From Psilocybe cubensis (taxonomy: Eukaryota): a DNA stretch of 64,000 nt. The position numbers were made by a program, and so were the translations under genes. The DNA lies in the NCBI GenBank assembly GCA_017499595.2, contig CM039005.1, forward strand, positions 2,790,001 through 2,854,000. The letters are read 5' to 3'. Position 1 is the first letter of the stretch. Each line of letters begins with the position of its first letter. Positions 11,898 to 33,599 of this stretch are shown one piece after another. Under the pieces are notes generated by a model. That model did not search any database and was not told the origin of the DNA. It saw nothing but the letters and a program-made list of their open reading frames with translations.

Positions 11898-12399
11898 AAA
11901 CACAATTTGTGTAATTTAGGTGTTTATTCTATTTATAGGCTATTTACAATAATTGTGTTTGGTCGGCATACAGCCACCAAACACAATATGTCTTTATTAA
12001 ATATTTGTTTTCCCAACATATGTGCTATAAGTTGAACATACACCTAAAGTTACATAAGACATGTAAGTTTACTGCTATATGTTCAACTTACAATGGTTGG
12101 CACCTGCAGTATTATTTGTGTAGCTATCTACAATATGACAACTTGAACATTAGTAATTTCATTCTTTTCAGTCCAGTATTTGTCTTCAAGGCAGATAGAA
12201 CTATTATAATATTATAATGTATTGGATAAAGCCCCTCCTAAAATACATTTTTTATAAATTGCAAAGGAACTGATCACAAGGACTTGTATCTGCCATGCGT
12301 AGCAACGGCCCACCTTATAAGTTGTGCAATTAAGGTTGATGGACAGTTTTTCTGGACACATATTTGAAACCATACAATGTGCTACATGGAAGACCGCGG

Positions 12400-12854
12400 G
12401 CTAAGAGAGAGAGGAGCGCCTTGATTATGATAAAGGGACAGGAGTTTGATGCCGCTCATGCCGTATGTACCATCACGAATGTGGTGACGGCAATGCGGCA
12501 TCGAACTTCTGCGGTACACATTGGCGAGCTGGACAGGTTCTCACGGTTCCTTTTTCCTCTGTTCCATCCATGCACAACCAGCGGGTGATGCAGCACATAC
12601 AGAACGAGTAGCGTAGCAATCCATCTACATAATATAGCGTAGTGTACAATGCAAATGTCACTAAAAGGAAACTTTCAGCCATGAAATGAGGACGGAACAA
12701 TATCTGTAGAGTCGCCGTAAGCCCTTCAATTTTCTACACGGCGATGTATCTTTGGTCAGTTACTCATCGCAGATCCAGTCCAGCAGACAGAATAACTCAA
12801 AGTTTCGCAACATGTCTGGTAAGTAGCAACTCTAGTGTACCTGCTGTTTGCTAA
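12400..12854 (+). repeat. Left copy of an inverted ~450-bp module (hairpin, putative promoter, 5'-UTR intron, ATGTCTG|GTAAGT first exon)
   Basis: Reverse-complement homologous to ~32495-33000, e.g. CATGTCTGGTAAGTAGCAACTCTAGTGTACCTGCTGTTTGCTAA vs CATGTCTGGTAAGTCGCAACTCCAGTGTACCCGCTGTTTGCTAA. Outer end is approximate. Confidence 0.85.
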
Positions 12855-13613
12855 GATAACAGTGCAATTAGACATTCACGATTCTTACTGAATTGGTTCG
12901 TTGCGCCCTCTCCTCTGGTCAAGTGTGTTCGGTGCTGTCTATACAATTTCCACCAACAATTCCTACTAACGACGCTGCATAGTCTCGCCTTTGCTTGAGG
13001 TAAGGTTCCGTTCTATATACATCCATCAAATTTTCAATGCATAGCGCGTCTCAGAAAAGGTGGCGGGACTTCTCACTACAAGGCAGCTTATTTGCGCAGC
13101 ACTGCTATCCTCCAGGAGGATGGTTGTAGTCGTGTGGGGGTCTTGCAAGTACGACTTTACTCTTCATTACGTTTCATCTGTTTTACTTTCAGGACGACCA
13201 GGTTCTCAAAACTCCGGATGATTTGCCACCGACGATGCTCTTTTATCGTCTACATTGTGTATTCGGTGGTTTTTTACCACCAATCTTTAGGCCGCCTCTG
13301 TCGCTCTACTGGTCCGAGATCCCAGTACGTATTTTCATCATTGTGAAATTGTCTAAGTATAATTCACCGACATCACCATCGTAGAATCCTCGACTCAGGC
13401 CTAAAATTTGTCGACCCGGACAACAATGCTACCGAAGACGCTTTTGTGTCGCCTACATCGTATTTGGCCTACTCTTATGGTTTATTCGGTGCTGTCCATG
13501 CGTTTTATTTACTAAACGATCGTTTATGGAGCGGTGTCTAGGCATCACAAGTTTTGCGTGGCTTCGAGATTGGTAAGTTATTGACAAAATGCGGTATTAA
13601 GTCTACGCCTTAG

Positions 13614-13995
13614 ACATGCCATCATCCCTTCCACCACTCCTACTCATTCGGCGGCTTTTACAACAATTATTTTTCGCCGTTGTTCGTATTGAGAGGCATT
13701 GCTGTTGCTACAATCTGGCTAGGAGTATTGCCATGGGTGACAGTGTGGATGTGGAGAATGTACTTTTCAATGAGGGAATCCGCGTACGTACCCACGTACC
13801 CATCCGGACTTCAACCTAATATCCACTTCTGACAGCTTCCTCTGTTTAGCGCCTGGTGGATAAGTGACGGCCCTAGATCTCCGAGTACAGAATCGACAGC
13901 AGCGTTTTTCAATAGAATACGCTACGAAGCCCCTGTGCCGCCATCCAAGAGCATCTACTCCAAGGTTTCTTCACATCCGGCATGGCTAGCGCTTC
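13614..13995 (+). pseudogene. Internal fragment of a DOA10/SSM4 (MARCH6-like) ERAD E3 ubiquitin ligase gene
   Basis: DMPSSLPPLLLIRRLLQQLFFAV / LRGIAVATIWLGVLPWVTVWMWRMYFSMRES |intron| AWWISDGPR...SSHPAWLAL resembles the region just after the RING-CH domain of basidiomycete Doa10. It is frameshifted and lacks the RING and the rest of the gene. Recognised from memory. Confidence 0.65.
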
Positions 13996-14894
13996 TGGTT
14001 CAGATTTCAAGTTCAGAAAAATATATGTACTGTAAATTTCTATTGTCGACCTTCTGGCTCAAATCCATCTGCCTTCGCCTGCCACACTCTACCCACCATC
14101 CTCCCGTCCCTTGTAAGCACCTTCACCCCATCTCCCTCGTTTCTGCTGCTCAATGACTGTAAACCAACAATAATGCGACGATAGCTGCTCGAGCAGCGAG
14201 TGAAAGCGCCACTGTCGGCGGTGACTCTTCCACCCCCAGCAGCGGCAATAACACGCAGACCACGCAAAGCGCACAGAACACGCAAACCACGCAACATGCG
14301 CTAAACGCGCAGAACACGTTAAACACCAACGTGAACCTCCGTTAAACACCAACGTGAACCTCCATTTGCCTGTGCGGTTCAAGCGGAGCGTGTCGAGTAC
14401 CGTGTGATGGTTCTTCTCGTCGTTCCTCGTTTGTTGTTGTTGTCGTCTGTTGGTGTCTGTCGGTGTTGTTCGTCGTTCGTCGTCATTCCTTGTTCCTCGT
14501 CGACGTCTTTTCTTTTTTTTAGATTTTTGTTTAGATTTCTTTGGGCTGGGTTTTTTGCATGTTTTATGTCTTTTTTTTTTGTGGATGTAATTTTCTTTTT
14601 TTTCTGTTTCTGTTTCTGTTTCTGTTTCTGTTTCCTTGCTTGGTGCGGTGCTCGTTCATGGATCGTTGCTTGTGGATCACTGCTCGGTGCTCATCCATGG
14701 CCGTTTGTTTGTGTGGAAGATGTAGAAATTGGTGGGGGGGTGGAGGGCAGAGGTAGTTGTATAAGGAAGAGGAGGAGGAAGGGAAGAGATGGGCATGGGC
14801 TTGGGGGCACAACAATCCAAACGGTCACCCTACCCCTCTTTTTTTTCAGCCCGGTCCTCCAAATTGGGGTCTCTCTCTCTGAGTTGGAGATTGA

Positions 14895-15030
14895 GGTGTT
14901 GCGGCAGAGTTGGCTTCGTAGTCATTTACTTTGTGTTCGTTGTATTGACTCAAAATCCATTTAGCCAAACCTCATCCAACGGTATATTGATTAAAGTTTA
15001 ATAACATTCTTATCGGCAACACAGGACACT
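14895..15030 (-). repeat. ~135-bp segment (5' end of an unknown gene) repeated in the same orientation at ~34697-34878
   Basis: GTGTTGCG.CAGAGTTGGCTT.GTAGTCATTTACTTTGTGTT...ATCGGCAACACAGGACA at both sites. Confidence 0.85.
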
Positions 15031-15564
15031 AGGTTGTAAAAAAAACGTACAGACCATCCTGGCACAGAGTCGTACGTAATATGCTCAGAACCAGGCCTGT
15101 ATGAAGCTTTTAAAACAGGTCTTCCTGCCTACGATGCAAAGTTTGGACAAGGTCATATTTCTCTCCTCGTCTCTCCCGAAAACAAAGAATGTTTTCAAGG
15201 TACGTTCGTTGTAAAGTTGAAGTTATCTGTATTCCAGTTAACTGCTCTATGAACTCATGGCGTGTTATTATTTGACTAGCAATACTCATCCACGAATGTA
15301 CTATTGCTGGTGTGGTCCACAGGACGATATTCCCATGCGGGTTCCACGGTGAGAGGACACTCACTCAGCGTGGTTCGGTATGCCGTTTTTATCCGTCGTT
15401 TCGAAATGGACTTGATACTAATCTATCTTATTTAGTGTATAGATTCCTCGAATGATATTTCTGTCTATCCACGTTAGATCTGTATAAAAAATGCAATATG
15501 TACCTACGACTAAACATATTGTAATGTGACGTGAACACTTTGATCGATACAACATACAAAGGGT

Positions 15565-15740
15565 CCACGAGATGTCACTCAGCGATGCCTTCGGTGAATC
15601 TTGTTGGGGGAGACAAAGAGCTGCTGAACTGAAAACACATGGTATGTCATTGAATACTCTTACTCATGTTATCATCAATGTTCCTAAACTCGTCACATTT
15701 AGAGCTGTTCCTTCCCTTCTCTGTGCAGACGTATTAAGGT
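15565..15740 (-). pseudogene. Partial diverged duplicate of the exon1/intron/exon2 junction of the 15893-16400 gene
   Basis: Direct similarity to ~16130-16290 (GCTGAACTGAAAA.ACAT.GTATGTCATTGAATACTC...TCCTTCCCTTCTCTG.GCAGA.GTATTAA). Confidence 0.75.
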
Positions 15741-15892
15741 TGAACGGGAAGTTTTATTTGCAGACAGCAGACAATATGAGCTCCCCACTGTTCACGGTTT
15801 AAAATGCAAGAAATTTTATTTTACAAATAGTGCTCAAATCATATTGTATGTTACATTGCGCTCCTTTGTGTCAATCCCCTCAAACATACAAT

Positions 15893-16400
15893 CTATTCGC
15901 TGAGTTCATCGACTTGAACACTGTCGTGGGTATCGCCTATTATGAGTATCGTTTCTTTTCCTTCGAATGGGACGTCTTCTAATTTTTGATTCCTCCACCT
16001 CGATCTCCTGCTTTCTAAATCGCGATCCAAGAATGTGGCAGCTTGTTGTCGGAACACATGAGTTCCTCCTACGTAGAAGCCCTCGGAGTCGAACACCCGA
16101 ACCGTCCAGTGCACGATATGATGTGCTCCATCTCGGTGAGTTTTGTTAGAGAGATGAAGAGCTGAACTGAAAATACATCGTATGTCATTGAATACTCCGT
16201 CCAAAATTCGTTACTCACGTTATCACCAATGTCCCTGAACTCATCACATTTGGCGCTGCTCCTTCCCTTCTCTGCGCAGATGTATTAATCTCCTCAAATA
16301 CCTCCCCAATCCACCTCCTGATAGCGTCGACGACATCGTTTGGGCTTGATCGTCGAGGGTATTTGGTTTTCAGGAATCGAATAGACCATTGGGAAGACAT
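15893..16400 (-). CDS. Two-exon hypothetical protein, ~151 aa
   Basis: ATG at 16400; GTGAGT...TTTCAG intron 16218-16167 joins ...GTLVIT to SALHLSNKTHRDGAHHIVHWTVRVFD... in frame to the stop at 15893. Confidence 0.65.
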
Positions 16401-16629
16401 GAGGGAGAACAATGTTATGAGACCAGTGTCAATATAAGTGAGCGCCAGTAGTTATTTAGTCAGTCTAACTCAAGGATGGTGTTGACGGTGAGGATTTGCG
16501 AGGTTGCGAGCGCCTAACTTGTGACCCTAACCCTAGTATTGGGTTGCATTTCTATCGTTGTATGTATCGAATTTCCTGCGAACACTGCGTCATGCCAGTG
16601 AAGGTGAGTATTCTGACATACTCCGCAGA

Positions 16630-18551
16630 TTATAATGTATAATTGCCACTAATATTCATTACGCTATACAAAGTATCTAAATATGGTGACTCCAAGTCCA
16701 TCTCACTGGTCAAGGGCGTCCCTCCCACTCCTGGTATGTAGATGATTTTCTGAAGCTCGCCGTCCCCGTTTTCCCATGCAGATTCAACTAGATATGATTT
16801 GGGCTCCTTCTTGCGCTCGTCGTCCACTTCGTCATCGGAATCCCGAATGACTAGTGGCTGAGGTTCCACTCCGAGGATATTGTGCAAGACCCTTCTGTCA
16901 TATAATTCTTGAACGAGTCGCTGATGATTGATCATCTAAAAGGCCAGGTCTGTTCTGTTTGAACTAATTACAGAATAACACATAAAGTTACTTACCTCCT
17001 GGGTGATGCCCATAACCGTTGGTAGAATACTTAAATCTTCAGGCTTGCAACGTCTTCTCAGTGACACAGATCTTTCACTGTCCCGTGAACTCAAAATCCA
17101 ACACGCATATACGCCGTGGAGGTCAGAATTCCATGACATCCAGAGAAGGCGGTCCTGACTTTGTGGACATTGTACGATCCGCTGGATATATCATTGGCTA
17201 CAAAGTAATGGTCAGTGAAGAATACCGAGGAAAAGATTTGAAGGTATACTCACAGGGATCAGCAGGATCTTCAATTGACAACATATTTCTTTGTACTTGG
17301 CAGGCCACCCTCGCTGCCTTTTGCTGAAATAGGTTCCACCGTCCCCTAAAGAGATCTCTCGTACAACTCGAAAAATTCCATCACCACACTCTCAGATTCT
17401 TTTCTGGGTCGATTTTCCCTCTCCGAATCTTGGGATGCATCTGCAGGAAACTGTACTTCATTCATGCTCCTCTGGCTCAAGAACGCCTTCGTGATCATAA
17501 CCAGGCTCCGCAACGCCTTGCTTTCCTTCCCTTTCGCTCTGGGTATCATGTCGTTCAAAAAACCAGTGATAATCTGGCCTGAGACGAGGCCATTCCCTTG
17601 GTTTATGCTAATATCAGCTTTGAATCGTCCATGGGTAGTGGTAAATTTATCAATGCGGGCTTTAGCCTTCGCTATTATGGTAACATGGGAGTTATTCCGT
17701 GGCGTTTAAGAGTGTTGGCCATGACATGCAGGACGGTACTGAAAGTACAACCAGATCGATATCGCTGCATTCATATCAGCGTGTAGATATGCATTCACTA
17801 GCAAAGCACATACCCAAGAGGGAGATATAATTTTGTTTGATAACTCCCAAAGGGAAAGCCTACAGCGTCGGGGAAGGCGGCGGTAAGGCATTTTGTGATT
17901 CGAGAAACAACTAACTCACGTATCTCGTCTTCTACGGGTGTTGGTAATATCCAATTCACGAAGGCATCTACTCCCCAATTCAACCTACGGAAGTGAACAT
18001 CGGTATCAGACACATAAAACAAAATTTACAACTTACATCTCAGCAATGTTTTGACACCGTTCAAGATCTAATCCATTAACCCAAGGGGCTTTTCTAGACG
18101 GCGCATTCATTCTTTGCTTCTTGTTTGCATAACCGTCGTCGTATTCGTCATGTCTCCGGCCCCCTTCGGCTTGAGTCTCATTCTAGGTTTATCCTGTGCC
18201 CGTTCAGACATCGTTGAATCTGTTTCATTCCTGCCATTCATTTCTTTTCGTTCCTCGCGTACCTTTTCCTCCTTGCGCGTACTAGGGTCGGTTTCCTCGT
18301 CAGATGTATCGGGAAATGGTATAAGTCTTCATTTTTCTCGAACGTTGTTGTTTTATCGGATGCATTTGTTACGCTTTTCGAAGACCTCTTGTCTTCCGGT
18401 TCCTTCGTGTGTGAACCACTATCTTCATCAGCACTCTGTGCTAACCTGCGCGCTGCCCGATCCGTTCCCTGTGAGTTTTTTGTCCTGAGCTCCGACTATC
18501 CTCGTTCGCATTCCTGCTGTGCGAAGAGCCTGTGGGAGATGTTGGTGGCAT
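16630..18551 (-). pseudogene. TRF4: Near full-length, intron-containing pseudogene of a TRF4/TRF5 (PAP2-like) non-canonical poly(A) polymerase
   Basis: FVNWILPTPVEDEIR...FPFGSYQTKLYLPLG|DIDLV (nucleotidyltransferase GS/DxD), IIAKAK, ADISINQGNG, FLSQRSMNEV, FLQMHPKI, MEFFELY, LSIEDPADP, NDISSGSY. There are deletions and frameshifts, including loss of the GGLGSY segment expected after MNEV. Confidence 0.9.
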
Positions 18552-21479
18552 AATTTTGGATACCGCAAGATTTTTGCAAGTTACGCCAGCGGCTTAGTAT
18601 GTCTGAAGAAATTGATGCCGAAAAGACAAAAGTCGTGTCCTTGATTATTAACACTCACGCGACCTGACTTACTACGCGTCGCGTCAACATGATACTGACG
18701 ATTGGACATCGCCGATATATCGTCAAATCAATTTGCAAGAAAATAGCGGTTTTTTTTGGTGGATCCATGAAATGACCTTTATGTTTGACAGGAATCCTGT
18801 CAAGTTTGCTGTAATATTACAAACATATTTTGTGTTTGACAAATAGCGTTTGATTTCAAATATAATTTCTGTTTGATAATATGTGTCTGAAATCATCCAC
18901 ATATTCTGTATGTTATCGACCATAAACATGAAACATAAGTTATGTACTAAATCAAACAAATGGTCAAACGGACATCGACACGCTCATCGTGTCGATAATC
19001 GCGCGTTGAGCGACACGCCCAGCGATTTTATGGCTATCTTGGCGTCTCGGTGATAAGCGACACGCTACATAGGCGCACAAGAAACACCTCCAATAACCAC
19101 AGACAGCTTGGAAATGCCGTATTCCGCTCTCTTCATCCGTCGGGCATCTACAACTGTCTACGTTACCAATTTCCTTCACCCGCAAATCTCGGTCTTCCAA
19201 GCTCAAATTTCCAACTCGTACCATATTCACACAGCCCCTAAACCAACCCAAAACACCCTGGAATCCCCAAAACCCTCAAAATCGACGTAGAATGACATGG
19301 TACGTACGAAAGCACACCTTGAATGTTGCGAAAATTTTCGTTGCAGCTCATATCGCAGAGCTTCTAGGACGGTGCCGGCATGACTCCCGGATAGAAAGGA
19401 GACGGTGGAAATGGGCCTGAATCGCGAATCGGGAGAGGAGGAGGATGTGGGCATACGTGATTTGTGGTGTTGGTGAGTTTTCTCTTCAGATATGCGGCGG
19501 GATGAGTTGGGGACTGTAGTGCGTTGGAAGGGGGTGTTGGGTATATGTGTGTGTGGATGTGGATAAGGTGTTGTTTGTGGTTTTGAGTGTGAATGGTTGA
19601 TTGTGTTTTCGGGCGCTTAACGAATTTCACAACAGATTTTTGTTGGGCACAACAATTCAATGTGTAAATCACTACAAATATGCTATTGCACTACTGTAAC
19701 ATGACCTAGATAACCTCCAGAACTCGCAATCTACGTGCAAACGGTAAATACGAGTGGTAGCCGTGTTCAAATAACATCCAACATTTTACAAATTTCCAAT
19801 CATTCTGACGTCACCCGTACCTCGCACAGACATCTATGCACCCCTATTCAACGCTTCAAAGACCCCAGGGACGTTTAAAGACACGAAAAAACACCGGAAT
19901 TAACGCCACGTATGCATTTTGTGCAGCAAATGCACATAACGAACACACATTTCGACGAGCTTCTGGGCACCGGCGAAGCTCCGAACGTGTTTTATATCTA
20001 GAGCAGTCCATTCTGAATTGGGAAGGCTGCTGAAAGAAGACGATTGAAAAGGGCAGAACGATGAATTGGGAGAGGAGGAGGGTGACGGCGTTGACGGCGT
20101 TTGCGGTTCGCGCGGGCTGTGTATCGCGTTGGGATACGATGAATTTGTGTATTTGTGAGTGTATTTAGCTGTCTTGAGCTTTGTATGCTGCGCAGTTAGG
20201 TGGAAATTGCAATTCGAGGTGTTTTAAAGCGAAAGGGCGTTGAAGCGTTTTCCGAGTTGTTGTCAAGTCAATTTTACACAGATTTATTAACCTACACACT
20301 GACGCGATGGTGCAAAACATATAAACACTATATCACAAGTGAATCCCTCGATTAGAGCTGCCAATGCATCGCATTTCGTCGTGCACGGCTACATACTTGA
20401 TCTATATTTGGCTGCCAGGGGCGACTGCAGAGTCTACAAGGTACAAGTGATAAGATTGAAGAAACCTGATCAAGTTGCAGACTGATAAGCTGAAAATCAA
20501 GGTACATACTGACGGTCATACACAAGTGCGTCATCCCGACGCGTTACGTGAAACGCTGTTCTGCACACTGTAAATCGAGATTAGGATGCTCTCGAGGATC
20601 GGGAGAGTGGTACTAGCCTAATGTGGATCGTAAATTTAAGGAAGCAGGCGCGCTGATGAATTTTACAGCATTTCGTCATTGATTTACGCGCCTGATAGGC
20701 ATCTCTGGCGCGGCGCGACGTGGCGAGGAAACGCGTCGCGTGTGTATTTTGGAATACGCGTTTGTCCAGTGCATTTTGGGATACGCGTTTGTCCAGTGCG
20801 ATTTTACAGTGCGCATGCGGGTGGTGTACCTGCGGGAAACGCGACGCGTCGCGCGCGGGTGAGTGGAGGAGGGTTATTTTGGGACGAGAGAGAACCTGCT
20901 AGTTAGTACACGTAGGAGTTTGTTACGTGCTGCCAGCGAGGAGGGTGTGTACATACTCGTAAGTGGTGTAATGTAAAAAAAACGTAAAGTGTAGCGCGGT
21001 TGGTAGGCAACATTCAACAATCGAGCAGATTGGAGCACTGGATGTTGGAGCATTGCGGCAGCAAGTCATGTATATTTGTGAGTTTATGGATGTGAATTAT
21101 CAATAACGTTGTATGAATAATGAGAGGAAAGGTAAATACTTACAGTGGAGGGAAGCAAGTTTTCGTCGGAGGGAGGGTTATGGCATGAAATTTTTACAAT
21201 TTCTACAACTTCGGGAGTTACAACATCCTCGTCTCCGAGGATGTGTAACGAGAACGACTAGTGGGAATGATGAGACTAGCAGTTAAAAAAATAAAGACCC
21301 TTAAAATGAGGCAAGAAAAAAGGTATAAAGAGTGACGAGTTTTGAACGTACTTTACCCGCAGAGTATGCCTTTATGCTTGCGGTATGCCAGCCCGTCCGT
21401 TTCTCTTCACTTGTTGGCTGCTCCCGCAATCCGACTTGATATTTGGACGTCCGGCGAGCGGTGTATGTTATATGTGTTC

Positions 21480-23389: not shown

Positions 23390-24150
23390 CTAGAGAAGAA
23401 TCGTAGAGCTCGCGGTTCTCGAACACCGTATACAAAGGTAACGTGAATCGATGTTCGCGGTCATGTCGGTGCCTGGGTTCTTGACAAAATTTCCAAGAAG
23501 CAAACTATCGTGATGGGCGAGTTGAGGCCGGAAGGTGTAATCTGGTCGCATCAAGACCTGATCTATCGCAGGCAAAAATTCGACTTGAAACCCTGAGACC
23601 TGAAGATCTGACCCCCAAAAGATGTGTAGACAGACCAAATTGCGAACGGAAGGGCGACGGATCAATGTGTAAGGCGAGGATTCCGTGAAGAGGTGTTTGT
23701 AAACGGGAGATAGATCAAGGACCTCGGTATACCGTACTTTCGCGAGGTTAGGTTGCAGAGCTGGTTGGTGACATCCATGTTGAACGCCGAGGCGCTTTAA
23801 AGTTGGATGTACGACTTGAGACGGCGGCTGGAGATCGTTTACTGAACGAGATTTGAGGAGGAAAAAATTAATGTGATTGGAGATGCGACTTCCCAAACCA
23901 TTTTTGAAGATGCATACCTGACTCCCAGGCATAGTGCGTGCTGGAAGAATGATGAAAAGTCTTCAAGATGAAATGAAGGAAGAACTGGAGGTTGAGAGGT
24001 ACAACCTGTCAACATGAAGGCGTACAGTCTATCGCGATCGATAATTAGAAGAGATTCGACCCCTAAATATACAGGCAAAGTAGGGGCGGAAGGAGGCGCG
24101 ATGTGTGAGGCAATGGTACTATACCATTGATGGTGCAAACGAAGATAGAA
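23390..24150 (-). pseudogene. Diverged or decayed hypothetical gene (Leu-rich, possibly F-box/LRR-type C-terminal region)
   Basis: Overlapping minus ORFs of 180 aa and 99 aa in different frames with protein-like composition; no recognised motif. Confidence 0.3.
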
Positions 24151-24257: not shown

Positions 24258-24968
24258 TCATGTATCATCCCAAAAAGAGAGCAATGTTTTGCTCTGCTTC
24301 TTGGCCTTCTTGGACGACGAGGTTTTTGGGGTCTTTTCTTTAGATTTCAACTCGGCCTTGAGCTCGTCGAGCTGCCCAATGGCTTTTCTTTTGTTCGATT
24401 TTGCTCCTGCTGTACCCGGTTTGGACGACGAGGAGAACGAGAGTCCCTGAGAAGCTGATTTCGAGCTCGACGAGCTCGCCTCTTTACCCGATTTCTCTTC
24501 CGAAGCTGCCTTTTCGGCAGCAGCTTTCTCTTCTGGAGACAGCAGCGGAGGAAGGCCCTTTTCTGTAACACACAAAAAGCATAATTCATCAGGTTTAGAG
24601 CGGTAACAGAAAGCATGCCACGCACCTGCACGACGGATGTTCTCTGCCTCGAATTCAGTGAGATATTTCCCAGCCTTCAACACCACCACCTGCGGCTTCT
24701 CGTCGGCAAACTCGTCATCTTCATCCGCGCTCCCTGGGTCATCTGCAGGGCGCTCGGGAATCGCTGGGCGGGGTCTTCGCGGGATGGGCGCACGACCCTC
24801 GCCTGTGTACTCGAATTCGTCGTCGTCGCCCTCGTTATAGGTTTCTAAGTCGTCTGCGTCGGGGATTCCATTCATGCGGTTTTGCAGTTTGAGCAGGAAG
24901 ATGGGTGTGTTTTGTTGGTACAAGAGTTTTGAGGAGAGCTGTGCGCGGGTGGGTTCGCGGGGCGCCAT
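24258..24968 (-). CDS. DUF4604 / KIAA1143-like conserved protein, ~215 aa, one intron (24625-24563)
   Basis: MAPREPTRAQLSSKLLYQQNTPIFLLKL, DEKPQVVVLKAGKYLTE, and a Lys-rich tail ending LLSFWDDT; canonical GTGCGT...TACAG intron of 63 nt. Confidence 0.8.
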   Translation of the reverse strand: MAPREPTRAQLSSKLLYQQNTPIFLLKLQNRMNGIPDADDLETYNEGDDDEFEYTGEGRAPIPRRPRPAIPERPADDPGSADEDDEFADEKPQVVVLKAGKYLTEFEAENIRRAGAWHAFCYRSKPDELCFLCVTEKGLPPLLSPEEKAAAEKAASEEKSGKEASSSSSKSASQGLSFSSSSKPGTAGAKSNKRKAIGQLDELKAELKSKEKTPKTSSSKKAKKQSKTLLSFWDDT

Positions 24969-25171: not shown

Positions 25172-26550
25172 CTACCCCCCCTTGAAATAACTTAGGAAAT
25201 GGACTTGCAACATTTCAATATCCATCTCGGAAACAGGCTTCCGGCATTTATTCGCGAATCGGTGTAAAAACGAGTTGATATGCTCTGGTGTCCAACTTGA
25301 AACAGCCAGGAGCATCTGTTCATCGTTAAGCCCATAAGCGTCGAAATCCTCCCAAAGATGGGCCATGGAAGGTAAGCATGAGTCGAGAAAGTGATAAATG
25401 GCATCGCCTCCATGGGATGAGGATGGTGTGCATGGCATGGAACCAATGGAACTGCGGCTGGCATTATTCGACCTTCTGGAGGGTGTTGTCCAGAGTGTTT
25501 GGGGTGACGACGGTATCCCTCCTGCGGTATTGGTTTCTGTTGACGGCCCAGGCTCGTTGCTGAACCTGGTTGGAACGATATAATCGCGGTACCCATTGGA
25601 GTTTGTTGGGTTTTTCGATGACGAAGAGAATGAAACGGTTTCTTGCAGGATAGGTTTTCTATCCACGGTCGTTCCTCTCCTCAAGCCAGATAATTTCTGT
25701 AGAGTTTCATGAGCTGCTGCAAAAATGAAGAATGTTGCTTAATTGCCTTTTTTTTTTGCAAATAACGCGCCCAATAATGGTTTTGAAAAATCATACGCTC
25801 CGCGAGACACAACCGTATCTCAGAATCTTGCTTGTTAAATGTATTTGGATATTTTTCGACAAGCTGTTGGAAGCAAGCGATCAAAGGACTGTACACCTGA
25901 AACATGAAATATGTACAGACCTCTTTACGGACGAATATTAATTTCTCCGCTTGAACAGTGGGACAAAGCTCTATCTTCAAATACTTTTCTCCGATCCTTT
26001 TGATGTCATTCTGTCGTTAAGGTATAAGAGGAGGGTCTACGAGGAGAGAAAAGGCAACTAACATAGATATCCCGGATATGATTGGGATCATTATTGTCTA
26101 GTTTAAGAAGCTCTCGCAGTTGAGATGCTGGGCCCTGTGTGCTGTTAGTGTGTTGCAAAGCTTTCTGTGATCGAAGTACCTTGCCATTCCTGTGCTCAGT
26201 TGGTCGGATTTCTAGCGAAAAACATAATAAGCTATATGATAAGATGCCCATAAAAACGGGCTTACTGTTAAGGGTGGAAGCAAGTGGCATTATTGCTTGT
26301 TAGGGGAAGGATGTAAGACCAGGTGAAGAGTTCAACGGTGTTTTATTTGCCACACGAGTCAACCCTATCTTGTTGAACGAACATGTATCAACGAACGTTA
26401 AATGACGCACTCCTTTTTGGATTATTTAGGCTTTTGAGCGTGTGTATCTTGTTGAACGAACATGTATCAACGAACTTTAAATGACGCACTCCTTTTTGGA
26501 TTATTTAGGCTTTTGAGCGTGTGCCTGGGAGCGTTGTTTGGATTCGACAT
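25172..26550 (-). pseudogene. Multi-exon hypothetical gene with an Agaricales-type C-terminal helical (SAM-like) domain; appears disabled
   Basis: C-terminus IYHFLDSCLPSMAHLWEDFDAYGLNDEQMLLAVSSWTPEHINSFL...SEMDIEMLQVHF; in-frame TAA in exon 2; frame change in the last exon (an A-run lies at ~25750); 79-bp tandem duplication over exon1/intron1. Confidence 0.55.
26366..26523. repeat. Near-perfect 79-bp tandem duplication
   Basis: TATCTTGTTGAACGAACATGTATCAACGAAC...GAGCGTGTG starts at 26366 and 26445; one mismatch seen. Confidence 0.95.
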
Positions 26551-27002: not shown

Positions 27003-27756
27003 GTGTCTATGAAAGCAGCCACAAGTGATCACACCCCCAGCTCCTCGAGACCAATGGAAGAGCCACGCCCGCGATCGCCGACTTCACGTTATCCGACACC
27101 TCCGCCCGCCGACGCGCCTCTCGGGCCCGCCGCACGATACCCTTACCTCCCAATGTCTCCAAGTCATCTCGGAGACGGTGGTGGTCCGGCCATCGACGAA
27201 AGCATCGCGGCTGTTCCAAGTCACATCACAGGTGCTACCATCACGTATAGTTGCCGTCCAGGGGGACCCTACCTCTTCGACCTCTTGGGTACCTTGCCTC
27301 TCGCGGAATACGGAGTACTGTCATGGGAAATTATCGATCGCGAGGACAAAATTTGGGAAAGCGACGATGTGAAGGAAGAACACAAGGTCATGCATGCTCT
27401 ATGGGCACGGTGGATATTTGTACAGGCAAATCGGTGAGTAGACCTCTTTTTAGACCTTTCTATATAAACATGATTGACACGCATATAATTAGAAATAAAT
27501 TCATCGCAAATTATGTCAAAGGTGTCAAGGCCTTTATCGATACATATTGGAGGATGATCCACAAAGCAGCTGGGTGGAGTGCACTGCGCTTTTTCTTGTT
27601 CGTAAGTAGCTTTGTGCTTGATATTGCTGGTATTTGGTCTTAAACTGAGCACCCCGTCTGTAGGTTTTGCTCGCCAACAATTTTTTGTCAAGCCATGATG
27701 TGGCTCAGGTTCTTTTATATTACCAAAATCTTACTGGGATGGATCACTGGGTATGA
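27003..27756 (+). CDS. VEFS-box-like (SUZ12 C-terminal) domain protein; probably 5'-truncated
   Basis: Exons 27003-27433, 27493-27601 and 27664-27756 splice in frame: ...SWEIIDREDKIWESDDVKEEHKVMHALWARWIFVQANRNKFIANYVKGVKAFIDTYWRMIHKAAGWSALRFFLFVLLANNFLS... This matches the VEFS pattern W..I....DV...K....LW...FIA...F...Y...I.K. Possible small upstream exons at ~26800-26956 lack an ATG. Confidence 0.6.
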
Positions 27757-27867
27757 TTTGAGTTGGACTTTGAAGTGTATATCCTAATATTAGCTTCAGG
27801 CAACGTAAACCCTTTCTGGTTCATGATACAACAGCAAACTACAACACGCTCAGGTCTCAAAATTTAC

Positions 27868-28210
27868 TCACTCCGCCTCTCGTAGAATTGGTCTTTCGAA
27901 CGCAGCTGCATCCTGATCTTTATCATCTTCATCATCAATTTCGAATCCATCGTCTTCATGCTTTTGAATAACCATCGCGCAAAGTTTGGCGATCGTGTCC
28001 TCTAACTCGGCTTCTGCTTGTGATTTCCTGGTAGCATTGTACAAACCATCTGAGAAGACAGGTTCCTTGGGATCCCAGTTGATTTCTTTGCCTCGCCAGC
28101 CACCACAGCTATGGATGTAGTTAAGAAAGGAGCGCCACAGCGGGTCGAGGGAGAGTACTGTAGGGTTGCCTACTACAATAAGCAGGGCTTGTGCGCGGGT
28201 AAGCGCCACT
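27868..28210 (-). pseudogene. Isolated last exon of a MOV10/SDE3/Armitage-like UPF1-family (SF1) RNA helicase
   Basis: (V)ALTRAQALLIVVGNPTVLSLDPLWRSFLNYI...GGWRG is helicase motif VI plus the typical tail. It is preceded by a branch point and TAG acceptor, but no upstream helicase exons are present. Confidence 0.8.
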
Positions 28211-30461
28211 AGATTTGTGTATGGTTGTCAGATTTCTTGTAGTTGAAAATGTGTAATAAATCGCTTCTTAACCATGAACCACCACGTTCAAAAATTTTCC
28301 CACAATAAACACTGGGGAAGGTTGAGACTGAGACAGGCATAAGCCCGCCTCAGAAAGGAGACTTTGCGATCCAGGAAAGATAGACACAACCCAGGGAACC
28401 CTGAACACCCTAGAAGGAAAACCGTGGTGGAGTCAAAGATGGACAACGTAGCGTTGCACGCCGCGAAAATCTAGCCCAATCACACTGTATCAACGAGCAC
28501 TAGCACAAGCTCTGACACATATAATACCAGATAAAAGCTAGATATGTAAGAGGATACACAACTAACCCAAAAACCAACCAGACACTAAAAGAAAAATGCA
28601 TAAAACACGACGTAACAAGATGCGATTTATTGAGACGTGGAAAGCAAAGACAGATCGCACACAGAAACTGGGTCACCAAACAACTTGACACAACGGAGTA
28701 CGCCATGCCCACAAACAACTACCTAACAAGAGAATGCACTATGGGCACCCTAGAGGTCAATGAAACCCAGAACACGACGCAACGGACGACAGCGTAACTC
28801 CCTGAGAGGAGCCCCGAAAATCACATAGCCCACATCATACGTACAACCAGAGAATAACTACGACCGTCAGGATACGGAAAAAACCTGAGTCAGAACCCTG
28901 CGAGAATGACGAGCCGAAACGAGCGTGGGTAGCAATGAGCAAGAAGCCCGCAGACCGAAAACCATATAAACCGCGTAAAGTTGGCAACCAGGCCCGATAA
29001 CAATACAGCTCAACGACAACGCATGGCAGCGAGGGAAAGGCCAAGACAAGAGGAACCAAACAAGTGAGTTGTGCGCCAAAAACACACCAACCCCACTTTG
29101 ACGAGACATTAAAACGCACTAAATCAGGTCCAGCGAGAATACACAACCAGCAGGAGAGCTCACCATGCACAAGCCCGGAAAGAGGAGAAAGGACAACGAT
29201 GAGAAAAGCTGGGAGAAGAAGAAGAAAACAGAACACCCTCCCCAAGAAGAGTCAGAGGAGGAAGATGATGACACCACCAACCACGTACCGGACGACCCAT
29301 ATTACCCATGGGACTACGAAGAGTGGTACAACGATTTCCACGGCATTTCGCATATGGGACAACAAGGGAAGCTAGGTGCAGACACCAAACAAACAAATTC
29401 GCCAAAATCCCAAACACCGGCGACATACGTGCTGTGGAACCCCTTCGAGAAACACATAGTGTTGTTACACTGTACAGTACTATACGATACAATGAACATA
29501 AATACATGAACATATCATGTGAGTTCAAAGAATTCACTGAACCAGTGAATATACAGTAACCATAACAGGTAATCTACAATGTACTTTATCGTACACATTC
29601 AGTGAATAAGGGACCTTTAACTCTGAAACCACTGTAACCATATAAAATTGCTCAAAGTCCCTCGAGCCGCATTCAGGACCCGCATTCCACGTGAAATCAA
29701 TCCCACAAAATGAATCTTGAATCCCGAGTTTAGGTCAATGTCTTCGATAGATTCAGAATGAAGTAATCCCGAAAACCAGGATTTCTACCTGTCTCTGCAA
29801 TGTCTCTGTAACAAATTCAGTGCCGCAGGCAATCATTAGCCAGCTAGAACTTGGAAATAATCAAAGTCTATACCGGACAACAGCAAGATTGATGTTATTT
29901 TTTGTGCAAGTCTGCCACACGCGGTTTTAGCATAAATCCTATTTCCACGTAGTACTTAACCGTGGTGTACTGAGGCGGCCCCGTTTGGATGATTTTAATC
30001 TTATCTACTATGACATGTGCAGCTATCACTGACCTTAAGGCATATTCGGACACCACAGAGCGGACTTTTGTCATACCCGCGGTTCATTTTGTTACATCTT
30101 CACTTCTCTCACCTAAGTAACTGGTTGCAGCAATCACAAACATATTGTATTTTTGACACAAAAACTCGGGCGTAAGAAATTAGAGGGATCGTACTTACCG
30201 TGTGTGAAACTTCAAATGAGCGATCGTATGTTATATTTAACACACGCGCCGGGCCAAGACATACGGCCCCTATGTCGACCGGTTATGTAATGGCCGGTCA
30301 ACCGGACTTGTCGTAAACATGCGAAAATTCTTACTTGAATTTGCAGGGTAGAACAAATAATTGTTTGGATATTGTAAAGTTAATAAAGATATTGCTTGAC
30401 AATGTAAACCGGGCCCCAAAAATTGGGTGGATTTGGAAGACCAAAAATTTATTGTATTGGT

Positions 30462-32490
30462 TTACATAGCATTGTAATCTACTGTCTGTTTAGTTGATAG
30501 TACGGAGTCTGGATGGCTATAATCATTACTCACGTCGTAGTATCCCCTCGCGACTTCCTCCCTCGCTCTTTTGTTCCTGACCTCGCACCTCCCCACAAGC
30601 TTGGTCTGGATAGCCATCACACCCGCAAAAATCGGTGCAATCGCCATGCCCGCCAAAGTAAGTTGCCACCCCGCCACCAACGCCCACACTAGACCCACGC
30701 TCAACATCGCGACCACAACCACCATCTGACCCCACACAACGGCAATGAGGTCCCGCGCGTCATCCCCATCCTTGATGAGAATCTGCACGAGGCGCGCGGG
30801 GGAGTGTTTGGACAGGTCGAACCATGCACGGTCTTGCGACATGATCTTTCCGCATGTGCGCTTGCGCAGCGACGTGGCCCACGAGATTCCGACGGTCTCC
30901 ATGACAAAGTACTTCACACCGAGGAGGAACCCCTCCATACCCGCTGCGCCTAGCACAAGTCCACCGTAAGTGTTGATGGCGTTGAGGTCCTGAGCGCCAA
31001 TGGAGACCACATACAAGAGGCGGGAGAGCAGGTAGGAGAAAATGGGCGTCATGGCACCGTTCATCACGCAGACAACGAGCCCGAAGAAAAGGAGAAGCTT
31101 GCGCGAGATGGACCTGTATGCGATACGCATGAGCGCCCAGAACGGTGGGAGGGGTTCTTCGCTCTCCACGTCTTGATACTCCTCTCCATCGTCTTCTTCT
31201 GCAAATTGAATTCGAGTTTCTCCACACTATATGTCGCCGCCGTCGCCGTCGACATCCGATAGGTGGAAGCAGTGAAAGTCGCGGAGGTAGGAGTAGGAGG
31301 GAGGCTGTATCGTCTTGTGTTGACCGTATGTGCAGAATCAGGAGAAGTTGGAAGCTGAAGACCCGAAGGAAACATGGCCGAAGATGGACGCCGCGTCGAG
31401 GTTGATTTTCGAGACTTTCCTGAGTTTCGTTGGATGGATGGACGGTGGCAGAGGCAGCGATGGCAGGCTTAGTACCGATGAGGTCGTCAAGAACGTAGAA
31501 CATCCACGCGCCGAATGTCATTGGTCGCAGGGTGAGGCTCTGATGCTTGAGGTACTGTGGCGTATCCTTGTCTTTGTTCTCATCGGCCTCTTCCTGTAGA
31601 TCCAAAGCGGGCACAGGCTTCTCCTCGTCGTCTTTCTCGGGGAGGAAACCACCAGTCTCGCGTTGAGCATCCATCAACTTTTTGAACTCGCCCTGGTCAC
31701 TACCATAATCGGCCTTGACTTCCTCAAGGTCAGACCTATACCCCTGTTCGACGACGCGGCCATCCTTAAGCACATAAACGAAATCCTGAGCGGTGATTTG
31801 GGAGAGGTCGTGGGTGATAACAATAGTCGTTTTGTTGTGTCGCCATAGCGTCGAGGGCGGAAGTGGCCTCGTCTGTAAACTATAAGTCTGGAAGAATCAT
31901 GGTATGAAAGCGAAAGGACTCGCCGAGAATCAGAACAGCTGGATTCCGCAACAACGCCCGTGCAATCGCAAGCCTCTGCTTCTGCCCACCACTGACACCA
32001 ATGCCTGCACCTCCACCGAGAAGAGTATCGTAGCCTTGAGGTAGATCTCGCACAAATTCATGCAGCAATGCAGCACGGCATGCGCCTTCCACTTGTCTCC
32101 GGCTTGGAAGTCCGTTCGGATGATCGTGCAACGCCATTGCGATGTTTTCGTAAATGCTCTTCTCATCGAAAATGACAACGCCCGCGGCTCCTTGTTGACC
32201 AACACACGCAACGTGTGAACGGAGCCAAGTTTGATCCAAAAGGCCCATATCCCATTCATCGAAGTTCATGAGACCCTGCTGGGGTTCGTAAATCTTCAAA
32301 AGAAGATGTGTGACGGTGGATTTCCCAGATCCTGAGGAGCCAACGATGAACGTCGTGTCGTTGGCGGGAAGGAATAATGATATGTCGGAAAGAACGGGTA
32401 CAGTTGGTCTGGAAGGATAGGCGAAGGTGACGTTGTAAAGAGCGAGGCCGCCGGAAAACTTGGTAGGAATGATTTTACGAGGGGAATCGC
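30462..32490 (-). pseudogene. STE6: Internal fragment (NBD1, linker, start of TMD2) of a STE6-like ABCB pheromone-export ABC transporter
   Basis: NVTFAYPSRP, Walker A GSSGSGKST, signature VSGGQKQRLAIARA, Walker B LIL|DEATSALD, TTIVITHDLSQI, then TMD2 helices ...GAMTPIFSYLLSRLL...KDGDDARDL...NKRAREEVARGYYD. A deletion/frameshift follows DEATSALDA and another lies at ~31390. TMD1 and NBD2 are absent. Confidence 0.88.
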
Positions 32491-32494
32491 ACGG

Positions 32495-33000
32495 TTAGCA
32501 AACAGCGGGTACACTGGAGTTGCGACTTACCAGACATGCTTCAACAAAAGTTTTGCGGTGTCTTGTTCACTGAACTGGATCTGCGCTGAATGACTGACCA
32601 AATATACAACATTGTGAAGAAAATTGAGTTACTTACGGCGAGCCTACGCGCTTAACATCTGTGTTGGCACTGTCTTATCTTCGATTACACCTTACGCACA
32701 ATATCGTTCGGTTTAGCTCCCTGTAGTATTTACATGGTACACTACGCTAGACTGTTTACATGGATTGCTGCGCTAATGTGCTACTTCACCCGCTAGATGT
32801 GCATGGATGGAACAGAAGAAGAAAGCATGAGAATATGGCCAGCTCGCCAACAATGTACCGCAGAAGTTCGATGCCGCTCATGCCGTCGCCAAATTGGTGA
32901 TGCGCGTGATTGTTGGCACGGCATCAGCGGCATGAGACTTCTGCTCTGTATCAAGGGGATTTTGTGACGGTGTGACGCCCTTCCTCTTCTCTCTCAACAC
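32495..33000 (-). repeat. Right (inverted) copy of the hairpin/promoter/first-exon module, fused directly to the STE6 fragment
   Basis: Homology to 12400-12854 ends at the intron branch point GCTAA, where ABC-transporter coding sequence begins; hairpin at 32860-32944. Confidence 0.85.
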
Positions 33001-33599
33001 TCACACCTATGAAGTACGTCGTACGGCATAGATGGTTCGAATAATTCGAATACGAGCTTAACTGTAGTAGCACTTTAGTGTAGACTCTAATACCATAAAC
33101 TTGGTGAAGCTAGCTGCGTGCTAGCAATACAATTGTAGTTCAAGTGACATTGTGCAGATAGACCCGGCTCGGGAGGGCAGAGCAAATAGTCGCCGGGTGA
33201 GCGACACAAAACGGAGGGGAACTACAATTCATATGGATAGTGAATTACACAGAAACATAGGTGCGAATCGTATTTGTATGTGCTACAGACAGAAAACGCG
33301 TTCTACAGCACATCCGCCGCCTCTTCGCCTGCCAGACCCGTATACGAGCGTCACAAACATAGGTGAGGAGTCATCTTTGCTATTAGTGCAGAAAACTTAT
33401 TCTACAGCATATGTGCCGCCTCATTGCCCTACAGACCTCAATTATTCAACGAAGCATCCACCTACATTCAAGGATTGAACGTTGAATGCTGCTATAAATT
33501 TACGTTTTGTACGACGCTGCCTACTGTAGGCACCCTCTCTGCGAGCTACCCTCTTTGCAGGTTGCCGTTTTAATTTGGAAACTTGGAGCGGCATCTGTG

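What the first reader, a model, noticed from the sequence alone, without database searches (positions are those of the whole stretch)
12300..33140. ~20-kb mosaic of captured housekeeping-gene pieces bracketed by inward-facing inverted promoter modules: candidate giant Pack-type element
Seen: two diverged inverted copies of a ~450-bp module (12400-12854 and 32495-33000), each with a hairpin, an intron and ATGTCTG|GTAAGT pointing inward. Between them lie intron-retaining pieces of at least six unrelated conserved genes (DOA10-like, TRF4-like, DUF4604-like, VEFS-box, MOV10-like, STE6-like), most truncated or frameshifted. Established: plant Pack-MULEs carry DNA-level host gene fragments between long TIRs that contain inward promoters, and Helitrons also capture fragments. 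Inference: this is a large gene-capturing element or capture hotspot in a mushroom genome. No transposase is visible and I could not identify a TSD, so serial segmental duplication is a real alternative.
Basis: partly seen in the sequence, partly recalled or inferred. Interest (0 to 1): 0.78.

Follow-up and report, generated by a model that had tools for sequence, protein, structure and literature searches.

The report
Mushroom patchwork of duplicated gene pieces
A 20-kb stretch of the Psilocybe cubensis genome is a patchwork of mostly broken DNA copies of genes from other chromosomes, and the inverted 'promoter modules' at its ends look like a duplicated gene start flipped by a small inversion, not like the ends of a jumping element.

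Summary
The observation largely holds. The window is Psilocybe cubensis. Two inverted modules of about 430-460 bp are real (E about 1e-49). Each has a palindrome, ATGTCTG|GTAAGT and the start of an intron.

Between them lie intron-retaining DNA copies of unrelated genes:
- a DOA10-type N-terminal remnant with a frameshift;
- a cid14/TRF4 pseudogene covering aa 1-574 of 701, with at least 3 frame-breaking lesions;
- a complete DUF4604 paralogue;
- only the C-terminal tail of a UPF1/MOV10-type helicase;
- an internal slice of a STE6-type ABC transporter (aa 382-1071 of 1450).

The VEFS-box was not confirmed. Intact parents of cid14 and DUF4604 lie on two other contigs, and the orthologues are unlinked in relatives.

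The Pack-type reading is not supported:
- module similarity is weakest at the outer ends;
- I found no TSD, transposase or Helitron-type end;
- the homology that follows the left module inside the region continues outside the right module in direct orientation. This fits a second copy of one unit plus a 1.4-kb inversion.

Best reading: a lineage-specific acceptor site of serial DNA-level duplications. Mobility of a larger block stays open, because a near-identical DUF4604 twin lies 42 genes away.

The parts
12428..12854 (+). Module L: upstream region, imperfect palindrome (arms 12439-12455/12495-12511), 7-nt first exon ATGTCTG (12812-12818), donor GTAAGT and the 5' part of intron 1 up to CTGTTTGCTAA. 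Weak similarity extends out to about 12400.
12875..12941 (+). Piece d. It follows module L directly and matches 33863-33939 in direct orientation (72.7% of 77 columns, E 1e-6).
   Evidence: Caution: a 27-nt part of it also recurs at 13480-13506 (family D14).
13385..13816 (+). DOA10-type (RING-CH E3 ligase) N-terminal remnant. 13601-13696 and 13668-13799 match aa 70-101 (75%) and aa 93-136 (59%) of a Gymnopilus dilepis RING-type E3 in two different frames, which means a frameshift. The RING-CH part upstream (13385-13600) is my own reading by eye and gives no Pfam hit.
   Evidence: no RINGv hit
14889..15028 (+). Piece b. It matches 34693-34876 in direct orientation (82.8% of 128 columns, E 8e-33, plus a 17/17 block).
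16762..18551 (-). cid14/TRF4 poly(A) polymerase pseudogene. It is an intron-retaining copy covering aa 1-574 of the 701-aa P. cubensis cid14. It has at least 3 frame-breaking lesions: DSMAYSDKA lost with a frameshift after DIDLVVLS; 15-16 codons (YTGGLGSYAIVCLAV) lost with a frameshift; and one more frameshift before VMEFFELY.
24261..24968 (-). Complete DUF4604 gene copy (215 aa, one 63-nt intron at about 24626-24564). It is identical to JR316_0009350.
27003..27640 (+). The identity is not confirmed.
   Evidence: no Pfam or relevant PDB support
27871..28227 (-). C-terminal tail of a UPF1/MOV10-type SF1 helicase. Only motif VI and what follows it are present (28212-28114 aligns to UPF1 aa 746-778 of an 800-aa construct). 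Motifs I-V were found nowhere in the window.
   Evidence: AAA_12 positions 179-194 of 195, E 0.14
30465..32485 (-). Internal slice of a STE6-type ABCB transporter: NBD1, linker and most of TMD2, equal to aa 382-1071 of the 1450-aa P. cyanescens orthologue. TMD1 and NBD2 are absent from the whole window. It is annotated as a 640-aa 'Alpha-factor-transporting ATPase' (KAH9478892), whose first exon lies in module R.
32495..32953 (-). Module R, the inverted copy of module L. Palindrome arms are 32860-32886/32918-32944 and ATGTCTG is at 32537-32531. A probable 10-nt extension reaches 32484, and weak similarity extends out to about 32998.
32484..33862 (.). Inferred 1.38-kb inverted segment: module R plus about 0.9 kb that formerly lay upstream of it.
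   Evidence: Inference. The inner end of module R and the start of d' abut within 5-20 nt in left-copy coordinates.
33863..34876 (+). Remainder of the second copy of the unit, lying outside the proposed element: d' (33863-33939) and b' (34693-34876). Spacing is about 750 nt, against about 1950 nt in the left copy, and no DOA10-like coding remnant is detected.

Best explanation
The region is a lineage-specific acceptor site of serial DNA-mediated duplications, i.e. a patchwork of duplicated pseudogenes. It is not a TIR-bounded transposon.

SHOWN.
- Pieces of at least five unrelated genes were copied as genomic DNA, introns included, from elsewhere in the P. cubensis genome. At least two came from other contigs.
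- Four of the five are truncated and/or frame-broken. One, DUF4604, is whole.
- The two 'modules' are the 5' ends of two old copies (about 75% identity) of one unit of about 2.6 kb. That unit comprises upstream region with palindrome, 7-nt first exon, intron 1, the DOA10-type remnant (left copy only), and pieces d and b.

INFERRED.
- The two unit copies were originally in direct orientation.
- In the right copy, a simple inversion of about 1.38 kb (32484-33862) had one break in intron 1 and the other at the 5' edge of the ABC fragment. It turned the promoter/first-exon module round and joined it to the ABC slice. That produced both the 'inward-facing' look and a chimeric annotated gene.
- The younger cargo pieces (cid14, DUF4604) were inserted later between the unit copies. 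The likely route is repair of breaks with ectopic templates.
- As a whole the region probably has no function. Possible exceptions are the extra DUF4604 gene and the module-R/ABC chimera.
For: CARGO ORIGIN.
- The window's cid14 copy is 385/461 aa (83.5%) identical to P. cubensis cid14 on another contig, but 317/481 (65.9%) identical to the P. cyanescens orthologue. The two orthologues are 71.4% alike.
- The cid14 lesions were read directly.
- DUF4604: 0 mismatches to JR316_0009350, and 15/215 mismatches to JR316_0006292 on a different contig. The three P. cubensis copies form a clade beside P. cyanescens (support 93/75).
- The STE6, cid14 and DUF4604 orthologues lie on three different contigs in 4 of the 4 relatives where all three were listed: P. 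cyanescens, Crassisporium funariophilum, Cyclocybe aegerita and Crepidotus variabilis. I judged this from contig lengths.

MODULES ARE NOT TIR-LIKE.
- Identity per 40 columns is 0.40, 0.30 and 0.60 at the outer end, against 0.68-0.88 in inner blocks.
- No >=7-mer is shared between the 140-bp outer flanks, where 1.08 would be expected by chance.

SECOND DIRECT COPY.
- 12875-12941, 14889-15008 and 15012-15028 match 33863-33939, 34693-34820 and 34860-34876 in the same order and orientation (E 1e-6, 8e-33, 0.006).
- Module R ends at left-copy coordinate 12854 (probably 12869), and d' starts at 12875.

NO MOBILE-ELEMENT PROTEIN OR END.
- 355 ORFs >=40 aa in 11000-35500 and 135 ORFs >=75 aa in the flanks gave no transposase, integrase, RT or RepHel family.
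- HelSearch-type 3' ends: 12 found against 15.0 in shuffles.
Against: - Ordinary segmental duplication does not by itself explain why five or more ectopic pieces from different chromosomes sit within 20 kb.
- Four of the five confirmed pieces are on the minus strand. This is not significant (two-sided p about 0.38, my arithmetic), but it is what a single carrier would give.
- A DUF4604 twin differing by 1 aa (JR316_0009308) lies 42 locus tags away on the same contig.
- A second ABC-fragment protein (P0013) has the same ends and 2 real substitutions. Part of the mosaic may therefore have been copied again recently, by a mechanism I cannot see.
- An unnamed 101-aa protein (P0365) shares the frameshifted reading of the DOA10 remnant, so further copies of that piece exist somewhere.
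- No intact P. cubensis STE6-type parent appeared among the best 120 hits. The ABC slice may be a broken native gene rather than a copy.
- Piece d is short, and part of it recurs a third time. The inversion model rests mainly on piece b and on the abutting coordinates.
- Module copy number in the genome is unknown.
Confidence: 0.6

Rival explanations
1. Giant Pack-type (MULE/CACTA-like) non-autonomous element. The two modules are its terminal inverted repeats with inward promoters, and the 20 kb between them is captured cargo that moves as one unit.
For: - Inverted modules bracket gene fragments whose parents lie elsewhere.
- Each module has a palindrome about 10-40 nt from the edge of clear homology.
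- A near-identical DUF4604 twin lies 42 locus tags away.
Against: - The modules are 75% alike and least alike at the outer ends.
- No TSD of >=7 nt.
- No transposase in the window.
- Homology next to the left module (inside) continues outside the right module in direct orientation. A TIR pair does not predict this.
- The cargo pieces differ less from their parents than the modules differ from each other. At protein level DUF4604 is 93% and cid14 83.5% identical to its parent; at DNA level the modules are 75% alike.
Confidence: 0.07
2. Capture by another kind of mobile element, such as a Helitron-like or an unknown giant element whose ends lie outside or between the modules. That element carried several host gene fragments on one strand.
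For: - The pieces are intron-retaining fragments from several loci.
- 4 of the 5 confirmed pieces are on the minus strand.
- There are signs of a recent second copy of at least DUF4604, and perhaps of the ABC slice.
Against: - No RepHel, tyrosine recombinase or other mobile-element protein in the window.
- Helitron-type 3' ends are not enriched: 12 against 15.0 expected.
- In the one agaricomycete studied in detail, Pleurotus ostreatus, the authors state that intact helitrons carried no host gene fragments (PMC4289320; abstract and passages read).
- The pieces differ in age. cid14 is 83.5% and DUF4604 93% identical to its parent.
Confidence: 0.15
3. Assembly artefact. The mosaic or its twin would come from mis-joined or uncollapsed haplotypes.
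For: The source is a cultivated strain. I saw nothing in the assembly paper about purging haplotigs (PMC8220353; term search).
Against: - The assembly was made from high-fidelity reads, with 32 contigs and 1.2% duplicated BUSCOs (PMC8220353, abstract and Table 1).
- The pieces are diverged and decayed copies (75-93% identical), which mis-assembly does not produce.
- Two annotation versions carry the same fragment proteins.
Confidence: 0.03

Closest known systems
Mosaic 'acceptor' regions of segmental duplication (duplicated, non-processed pseudogene clusters, as described for primate pericentromeric and subtelomeric regions; recalled, not from a call)
   Same: - Juxtaposed DNA-level copies of pieces of unlinked genes, with introns kept.
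- Truncated at arbitrary points, of different ages and mixed orientations.
- Later secondary duplication of the mosaic.
- No transposon hallmarks.
   Different: - Much smaller scale: pieces of 0.4-2 kb within 20 kb.
- Found in a compact mushroom genome.
- The chromosomal position (subtelomeric or not) is unknown here.
Pack-MULEs / Pack-type TIR elements of plants
   Same: - Host gene fragments with introns lie between inverted repeats that contain outward-to-inward promoters.
- Chimeric transcripts are possible.
   Different: - The repeats here are 75% alike and weakest at their outer ends.
- No TSD and no related transposase were seen.
- The right repeat is the flipped 5' end of a second direct copy whose remainder lies outside the region.
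Helitron gene capture, and fungal helitrons HELPO1/2 of Pleurotus ostreatus (PMC4289320)
   Same: Multi-gene, intron-retaining fragments, mostly on one strand.
   Different: - No RepHel.
- No enrichment of hairpin+CTRR ends.
- The Pleurotus paper reports no host gene fragments in intact elements.
Transposon-mediated amplification ('transduplication') of host genes in ascomycetes (PMC6710886, PMC3538342; search listing and abstract starts only)
   Same: Host genes or fragments are copied to new places in a fungal genome and often decay.
   Different: Those cases are tied to identifiable transposons. None is identifiable here, and the host is a basidiomycete.

Membership tests
Pack-MULE / Pack-type TIR element | Terminal inverted repeats, best conserved at the very termini | tested here: not met
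   An inverted repeat exists. Identity is 0.40, 0.30 and 0.60 in the three outermost 40-column windows against 0.68-0.88 further in, and 315/418 overall.
Pack-MULE / Pack-type TIR element | Target-site duplication flanking the two ends (8-11 bp for MULEs) | tested here: not met
   No shared k-mer of >=7 nt between 12300-12440 and 32940-33080, where 1.08 would be expected by chance for 7-mers. TSDs of 2-5 bp cannot be judged without exact termini.
Pack-MULE / Pack-type TIR element | Cargo made of host gene fragments whose parents lie elsewhere | tested here: met
   The cid14 and DUF4604 parents are on other contigs. The ABC, helicase and DOA10 pieces are truncated, but their parents in P. cubensis were not found or not searched.
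Pack-MULE / Pack-type TIR element | Repeat homology confined to the two ends of the element | tested here: not met
   Pieces d and b, which follow the left module inside, recur outside the right module in direct orientation.
Pack-MULE / Pack-type TIR element | Multiple copies, and an autonomous relative with the same ends that encodes a transposase | not testable with these tools
   No fungal genome collection was available. Within the window there is no further module copy and no transposase family.
Helitron | RepHel protein, or the ends of a known family | tested here: not met
   No Rep or PIF1-type helicase family in 490 ORFs. The one helicase remnant is UPF1-like.
Helitron | Subterminal GC-rich hairpin 5-8 nt before a 3' CTRR | tested here: inconclusive
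   12 candidates in 11000-35500 on both strands, against a mean of 15.0 (range 6-22) in 30 shuffles. There is no enrichment, but a single true end cannot be excluded.
Duplicated (non-processed) pseudogene cluster from segmental duplication | Copies keep introns and flanking non-coding DNA | tested here: met
   - cid14: intron after LYLPLG.
- DUF4604: 63-nt intron kept.
- ABC: exon ends at a GTGAGT donor.
Duplicated (non-processed) pseudogene cluster from segmental duplication | Disabling lesions or truncation relative to an intact parent | tested here: met
   - cid14: at least 3 frame-breaking lesions.
- DOA10: frameshift.
- ABC: aa 382-1071 of 1450.
- Helicase: tail only.
- DUF4604 is the exception, being intact.
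Duplicated (non-processed) pseudogene cluster from segmental duplication | Copies arose within the lineage and are closer to the species' own parent than to orthologues | tested here: met
   - cid14: 83.5% to the parent against 65.9% to the orthologue.
- DUF4604: tree.
- Not testable for the other three pieces.
Processed pseudogenes / retrocopies | Intronless, poly(A) tail | tested here: not met
   Introns are retained.
Starship-type giant cargo elements | Tyrosine-recombinase 'captain' (DUF3435) at one end | tested here: not met
   No such Pfam family among the 490 ORFs scanned. That the group is known only from Pezizomycotina is recalled, not from a call.

The most novel reading that the evidence does not exclude
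A block of this mosaic is still being copied as a unit by an unrecognised mechanism. The block includes at least the DUF4604 gene and perhaps the ABC slice joined to module R. A twin that differs by one amino acid sits 42 genes away on the same chromosome, and a second ABC-fragment protein has the same ends. If the two copies share sharp, conserved boundaries, this would be a new kind of large cargo-carrying mobile unit in a basidiomycete. Its ends need not be the modules.
Probability: 0.15. Interest if true: 0.7.

Novelty: new member of a known kind. Interest (0 to 1): 0.4.

Why it matters
If my reading is right, this is a clean, small example of how a compact mushroom genome collects and reshuffles DNA copies of genes from other chromosomes. 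One small inversion has put a duplicated promoter and first exon in front of a foreign gene slice, producing an annotated chimeric 'gene'.

It also gives practical warnings for annotation of Psilocybe genomes:
- KAH9478892, 'Alpha-factor-transporting ATPase', is a two-ended truncation.
- The cid14-like stretch is a pseudogene.
- DUF4604 is present three times.

Only if the block proves to be mobile would it bear on the open question of whether basidiomycetes have large cargo-carrying elements.

Tried and rejected
I then sent stop-free ORFs.
- My own intron-aware 'longest ORF' script strung an open frame through almost anything. It gave 981 aa across regions that are clearly other genes, so I dropped it as a gene predictor. 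None of its output was used.
- A codon-usage score trained on a few window ORFs was too weak to decide which ORFs are coding.
- PDB searches with the DOA10-region ORFs, the VEFS-like ORFs, ORF 25175-25738 and ORF 15896-16210 gave nothing meaningful.
- The tblastx self-comparison added nothing to blastn, and its summed E-values are not usable.
- Rfam and tRNA scans found nothing.
- A search for TMD1 or NBD2 of the ABC transporter anywhere in the window, at E up to 20, found only cross-matches to the parts already present.
- RIP-like decay of the modules was considered. There are 64 transitions against 39 transversions, which is not the near-pure transition pattern of RIP.
- Solo-LTR and CACTA ends were considered by eye at the module edges. 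No TG...CA or CACTA termini were seen. This is a weak test.
- Literature: searches with 'Psilocybe cubensis' + 'transposable elements' + 'duplication' (4 papers, none on this region) and with 'Pack-MULE' + 'fungi' + 'gene fragments' found no description of such a locus in Psilocybe.

Full report
WHAT THE WINDOW IS. The STE6-like exon at 31883-32494 (-) is 99% identical to Psilocybe cubensis proteins. Its best full-length relative is a 1450-aa P. cyanescens protein. The DUF4604 gene of the window is identical (0 mismatches in 215 aa) to JR316_0009350. The ABC fragment equals KAH9478892 in all exons. Both are on a P. cubensis contig of 3,335,923 bp.

THE MODULES. Self-comparison confirms two inverted copies. 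12428-12854 (+) matches 32953-32495 (-) at 69.3% over 473 columns with E 1e-49, and the window holds no third copy. In the MAFFT alignment 315 of 418 aligned bases are identical, with 64 transitions and 39 transversions. Both copies hold:
- an imperfect palindrome near the outer side, which includes a 24-nt block that is identical in the two;
- ATGTCTG followed by GTAAGT (12812-12824; 32537-32525).

Homology ends inside the intron just after CTGTTTGCTAA.

THE CARGO, PIECE BY PIECE.

(a) cid14/TRF4.
- 18551-16762 (-) aligns with aa 1-574 of the 701-aa P. cubensis 'Poly(A) RNA polymerase cid14', which lies on a 4,186,456-bp contig.
- An intron is kept after LYLPLG.
- DSMAYSDKA is lost with a frameshift.
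- 15-16 codons of the conserved core are lost with another frameshift.
- A third frameshift precedes VMEFFELY.
- Over 13 blocks the copy is 385/461 (83.5%) identical to the P. cubensis parent and 317/481 (65.9%) identical to the P. cyanescens orthologue. The two orthologues are 71.4% alike.
- It is therefore a pseudogene made after the two species split.

(b) DUF4604.
- 24968-24261 (-) is a complete gene with its 63-nt intron (Pfam 4.6e-18).
- P. cubensis has three such genes: JR316_0009350 (this one), JR316_0009308 on the same contig (1 aa different) and JR316_0006292 on a 3,675,134-bp contig (15/215 different).
- In a 14-sequence tree the three form a clade next to P. cyanescens. Support is 93/75, and the tool said the bootstrap had not settled.

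(c) ABC transporter.
- 32485-30531 (-) covers aa 382-1071 of 1450: NBD1, linker and about two thirds of TMD2.
- It ends at a GTGAGT donor.
- TMD1 and NBD2 are nowhere in the window, even at E up to 20.
- Among the best 120 of 7922 hits, the only P. cubensis entries are the fragment proteins themselves. An intact parent was therefore not seen.

(d) Helicase.
- ORF 27871-28227 (-) matches only UPF1 aa 746-778 of an 800-aa construct and AAA_12 positions 179-194 of 195 (E 0.14).
- Patterns for motifs I-V hit nothing in six frames (the patterns are recalled).

(e) DOA10-like.
- The exhaustive search with ORF 13601-13816 found 3 proteins.
- One is a Gymnopilus dilepis 'RING-type E3 ubiquitin transferase'. 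Its aa 70-101 and aa 93-136 match 13601-13696 and 13668-13799 in two frames, which means a frameshift.
- Less than 3 kb separates it from the next features, too little for a whole DOA10. The typical size of that protein is recalled.
- An unnamed 101-aa protein (P0365) shares the frameshifted reading.

(f) VEFS-box.
- The ORFs at 27003-27640 (+) gave no Pfam hit at E<=5 and no relevant PDB hit.
- The identity is not confirmed.

THE PARENTS ARE UNLINKED. In P. cubensis the cid14 parent, the divergent DUF4604 copy and the window lie on three contigs. In all 4 relatives for which the three orthologues were listed, the three contig lengths differ. These relatives are P. cyanescens, Crassisporium funariophilum, Cyclocybe aegerita and Crepidotus variabilis. 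In six further species two of the genes are listed, again on contigs of different length. The region is therefore not a decayed copy of one ancestral gene block.

IS IT A PACK-TYPE ELEMENT?
- The modules are least alike at their outer ends: 0.40, 0.30 and 0.60 identity per 40 columns, against up to 0.88 inside.
- The outer flanks share no direct repeat of >=7 nt.
- 355 ORFs >=40 aa in 11000-35500 and 135 ORFs >=75 aa in the flanks hit no mobile-element family.
- Helitron-type 3' ends are not enriched: 12 against 15.0.
- The DNA that follows the left module inside the region recurs outside the right module, in the same order and in direct orientation:
  - 12875-12941 ~ 33863-33939 (E 1e-6);
  - 14889-15008 ~ 34693-34820 (E 8e-33);
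  - 15012-15028 ~ 34860-34876 (E 0.006).
- In left-copy coordinates module R ends at 12854 (probably 12869, 8 of 10 further bases matching after a 5-nt gap), and the outside piece starts at 12875. The two right-hand pieces thus abut within 5-20 nt of one another in the reference copy. That is what a single break in a once contiguous second copy would give.
- A simple inversion of 32484-33862 restores a direct copy [module-d'-b'], and explains why the module now points at the ABC slice.
- Cautions: piece d is short and a 27-nt part of it occurs a third time. Piece b could be an independent small repeat.

BEST EXPLANATION AND RIVALS.

Best (0.6): this is an acceptor site that collected DNA-level copies of gene pieces at different times.
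- The unit copies are about 75% alike at DNA level, cid14 is 83.5% identical to its parent, and DUF4604 is 93%.
- One local inversion created the inverted-module picture and a chimeric annotated gene, whose first exon MSGIELLRYI lies in module R.
- Shown: the pieces, their lesions, parents elsewhere, unlinked orthologues, and the direct homology outside module R.
- Inferred: the inversion, the order of events, the repair-based mechanism, and that the module is the 5' end of the DOA10-type copy.

Rivals:
- a Pack-type TIR element (0.07);
- another carrier such as a Helitron-like or unknown giant element (0.15);
- an assembly artefact (0.03). The assembly paper reports HiFi reads, 32 contigs and 1.2% duplicated BUSCOs (PMC8220353, abstract and Table 1).

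What speaks for some mobility:
- the DUF4604 twin 42 locus tags away;
- a second ABC-fragment protein (P0013) with the same ends and two real substitutions;
- the clustering itself.

COMPARISON WITH WHAT IS KNOWN.
- The region works most like the mosaic duplication acceptor regions known from larger genomes (recalled).
- It resembles Pack-MULEs only in its layout.
- For agaricomycetes, the Pleurotus helitron study states that intact helitrons carried no host gene fragments (PMC4289320; abstract and passages).
- Transposon-linked amplification of host genes is described in ascomycetes (PMC6710886, PMC3538342; search listing and abstract starts only).
- My two literature searches found no description of this locus.

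WHAT STAYED UNCHECKED.
- Genome-wide copy number of the module.
- The second copy near JR316_0009308.
- Parent DNA and exact breakpoints.
- Synteny in relatives and empty sites.
- An intact STE6-type gene in P. cubensis.
- The identity of the VEFS-like ORFs and of ORFs 23393-23962 and 25175-26300.
- Expression.

The causes were these.

Noticed in passing
window 11660-11897: A 238-bp near-palindrome (two 108-nt arms, 92% complementary, 22-nt spacer). It lies in an AT-rich tract (GC 0.34-0.37 at 8-12 kb) just left of the region and could be a foldback or MITE-like remnant.
   Followed up: partly
window 21430-22560: Tandem array with a 197-bp period (3.6 good copies at 21756-22460, 78% matches, with weaker copies on both sides). 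Each unit holds a canonical GTAAGT...YAG intron-like stretch on the + strand. The two half-units of about 99 nt are 89 nt apart, so they are not in one reading frame. This looks like an amplified exon-intron fragment or a minisatellite.
   Followed up: partly
window 11498-11659 and 29453-29614: A 162-bp dispersed repeat in inverted orientation (69.5%). One copy lies left of module L and the other inside the region. It is not collinear with the modules.
   Followed up: partly
window 35845-45340: Local duplications right of the region. 35877-37316 ~ 39978-41352 is direct (about 74%). 38043-38663 matches 42431-43058 and 44649-45158 in inverted orientation. This is probably a small lineage-specific gene family.
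   Followed up: no
window 1-11000 and 35500-64000: None of the 135 ORFs >=75 aa in the flanks gave a credible Pfam hit at E<=1e-3; the only hit was one chance-level TMEM218_N match. This is unusual for a gene-dense mushroom genome. The whole window may be a lineage-specific, fast-changing region.
   Followed up: no
window 15421-16451 (-): Two tandem copies of a stretch (15591-15737 ~ 16133-16288, 78%), with a weak TRAF/MATH-like Pfam hit for ORF 15896-16210 (E 0.0056). This may be another gene remnant between the DOA10 and cid14 pieces.
   Followed up: partly
window 26366-26523 and 34785-34857: Young perfect or near-perfect tandem duplications: 79 bp x2 at 98% and 36 bp x2 at 100%. The second lies inside piece b'.
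   Followed up: no
P. cyanescens proteins P0367 and P0122 (no locus held): P. cyanescens carries two cid14-like genes on one 89,815-bp contig: CVT25_012816 (758 aa) and CVT25_012824 (284 aa, 94% identical over 277 aa). cid14 may therefore be prone to partial duplication in this genus.
   Followed up: no
window 32854-32877 / 12495-12518: The 24-nt block that is identical in both modules forms the 3' arm of the palindrome. In module R it is read by the public gene model as the first exon (MSGIELLRYI) of the ABC-fragment gene. In module L the same block is in another frame relative to its ATG, so there is no shared ORF.
   Followed up: partly
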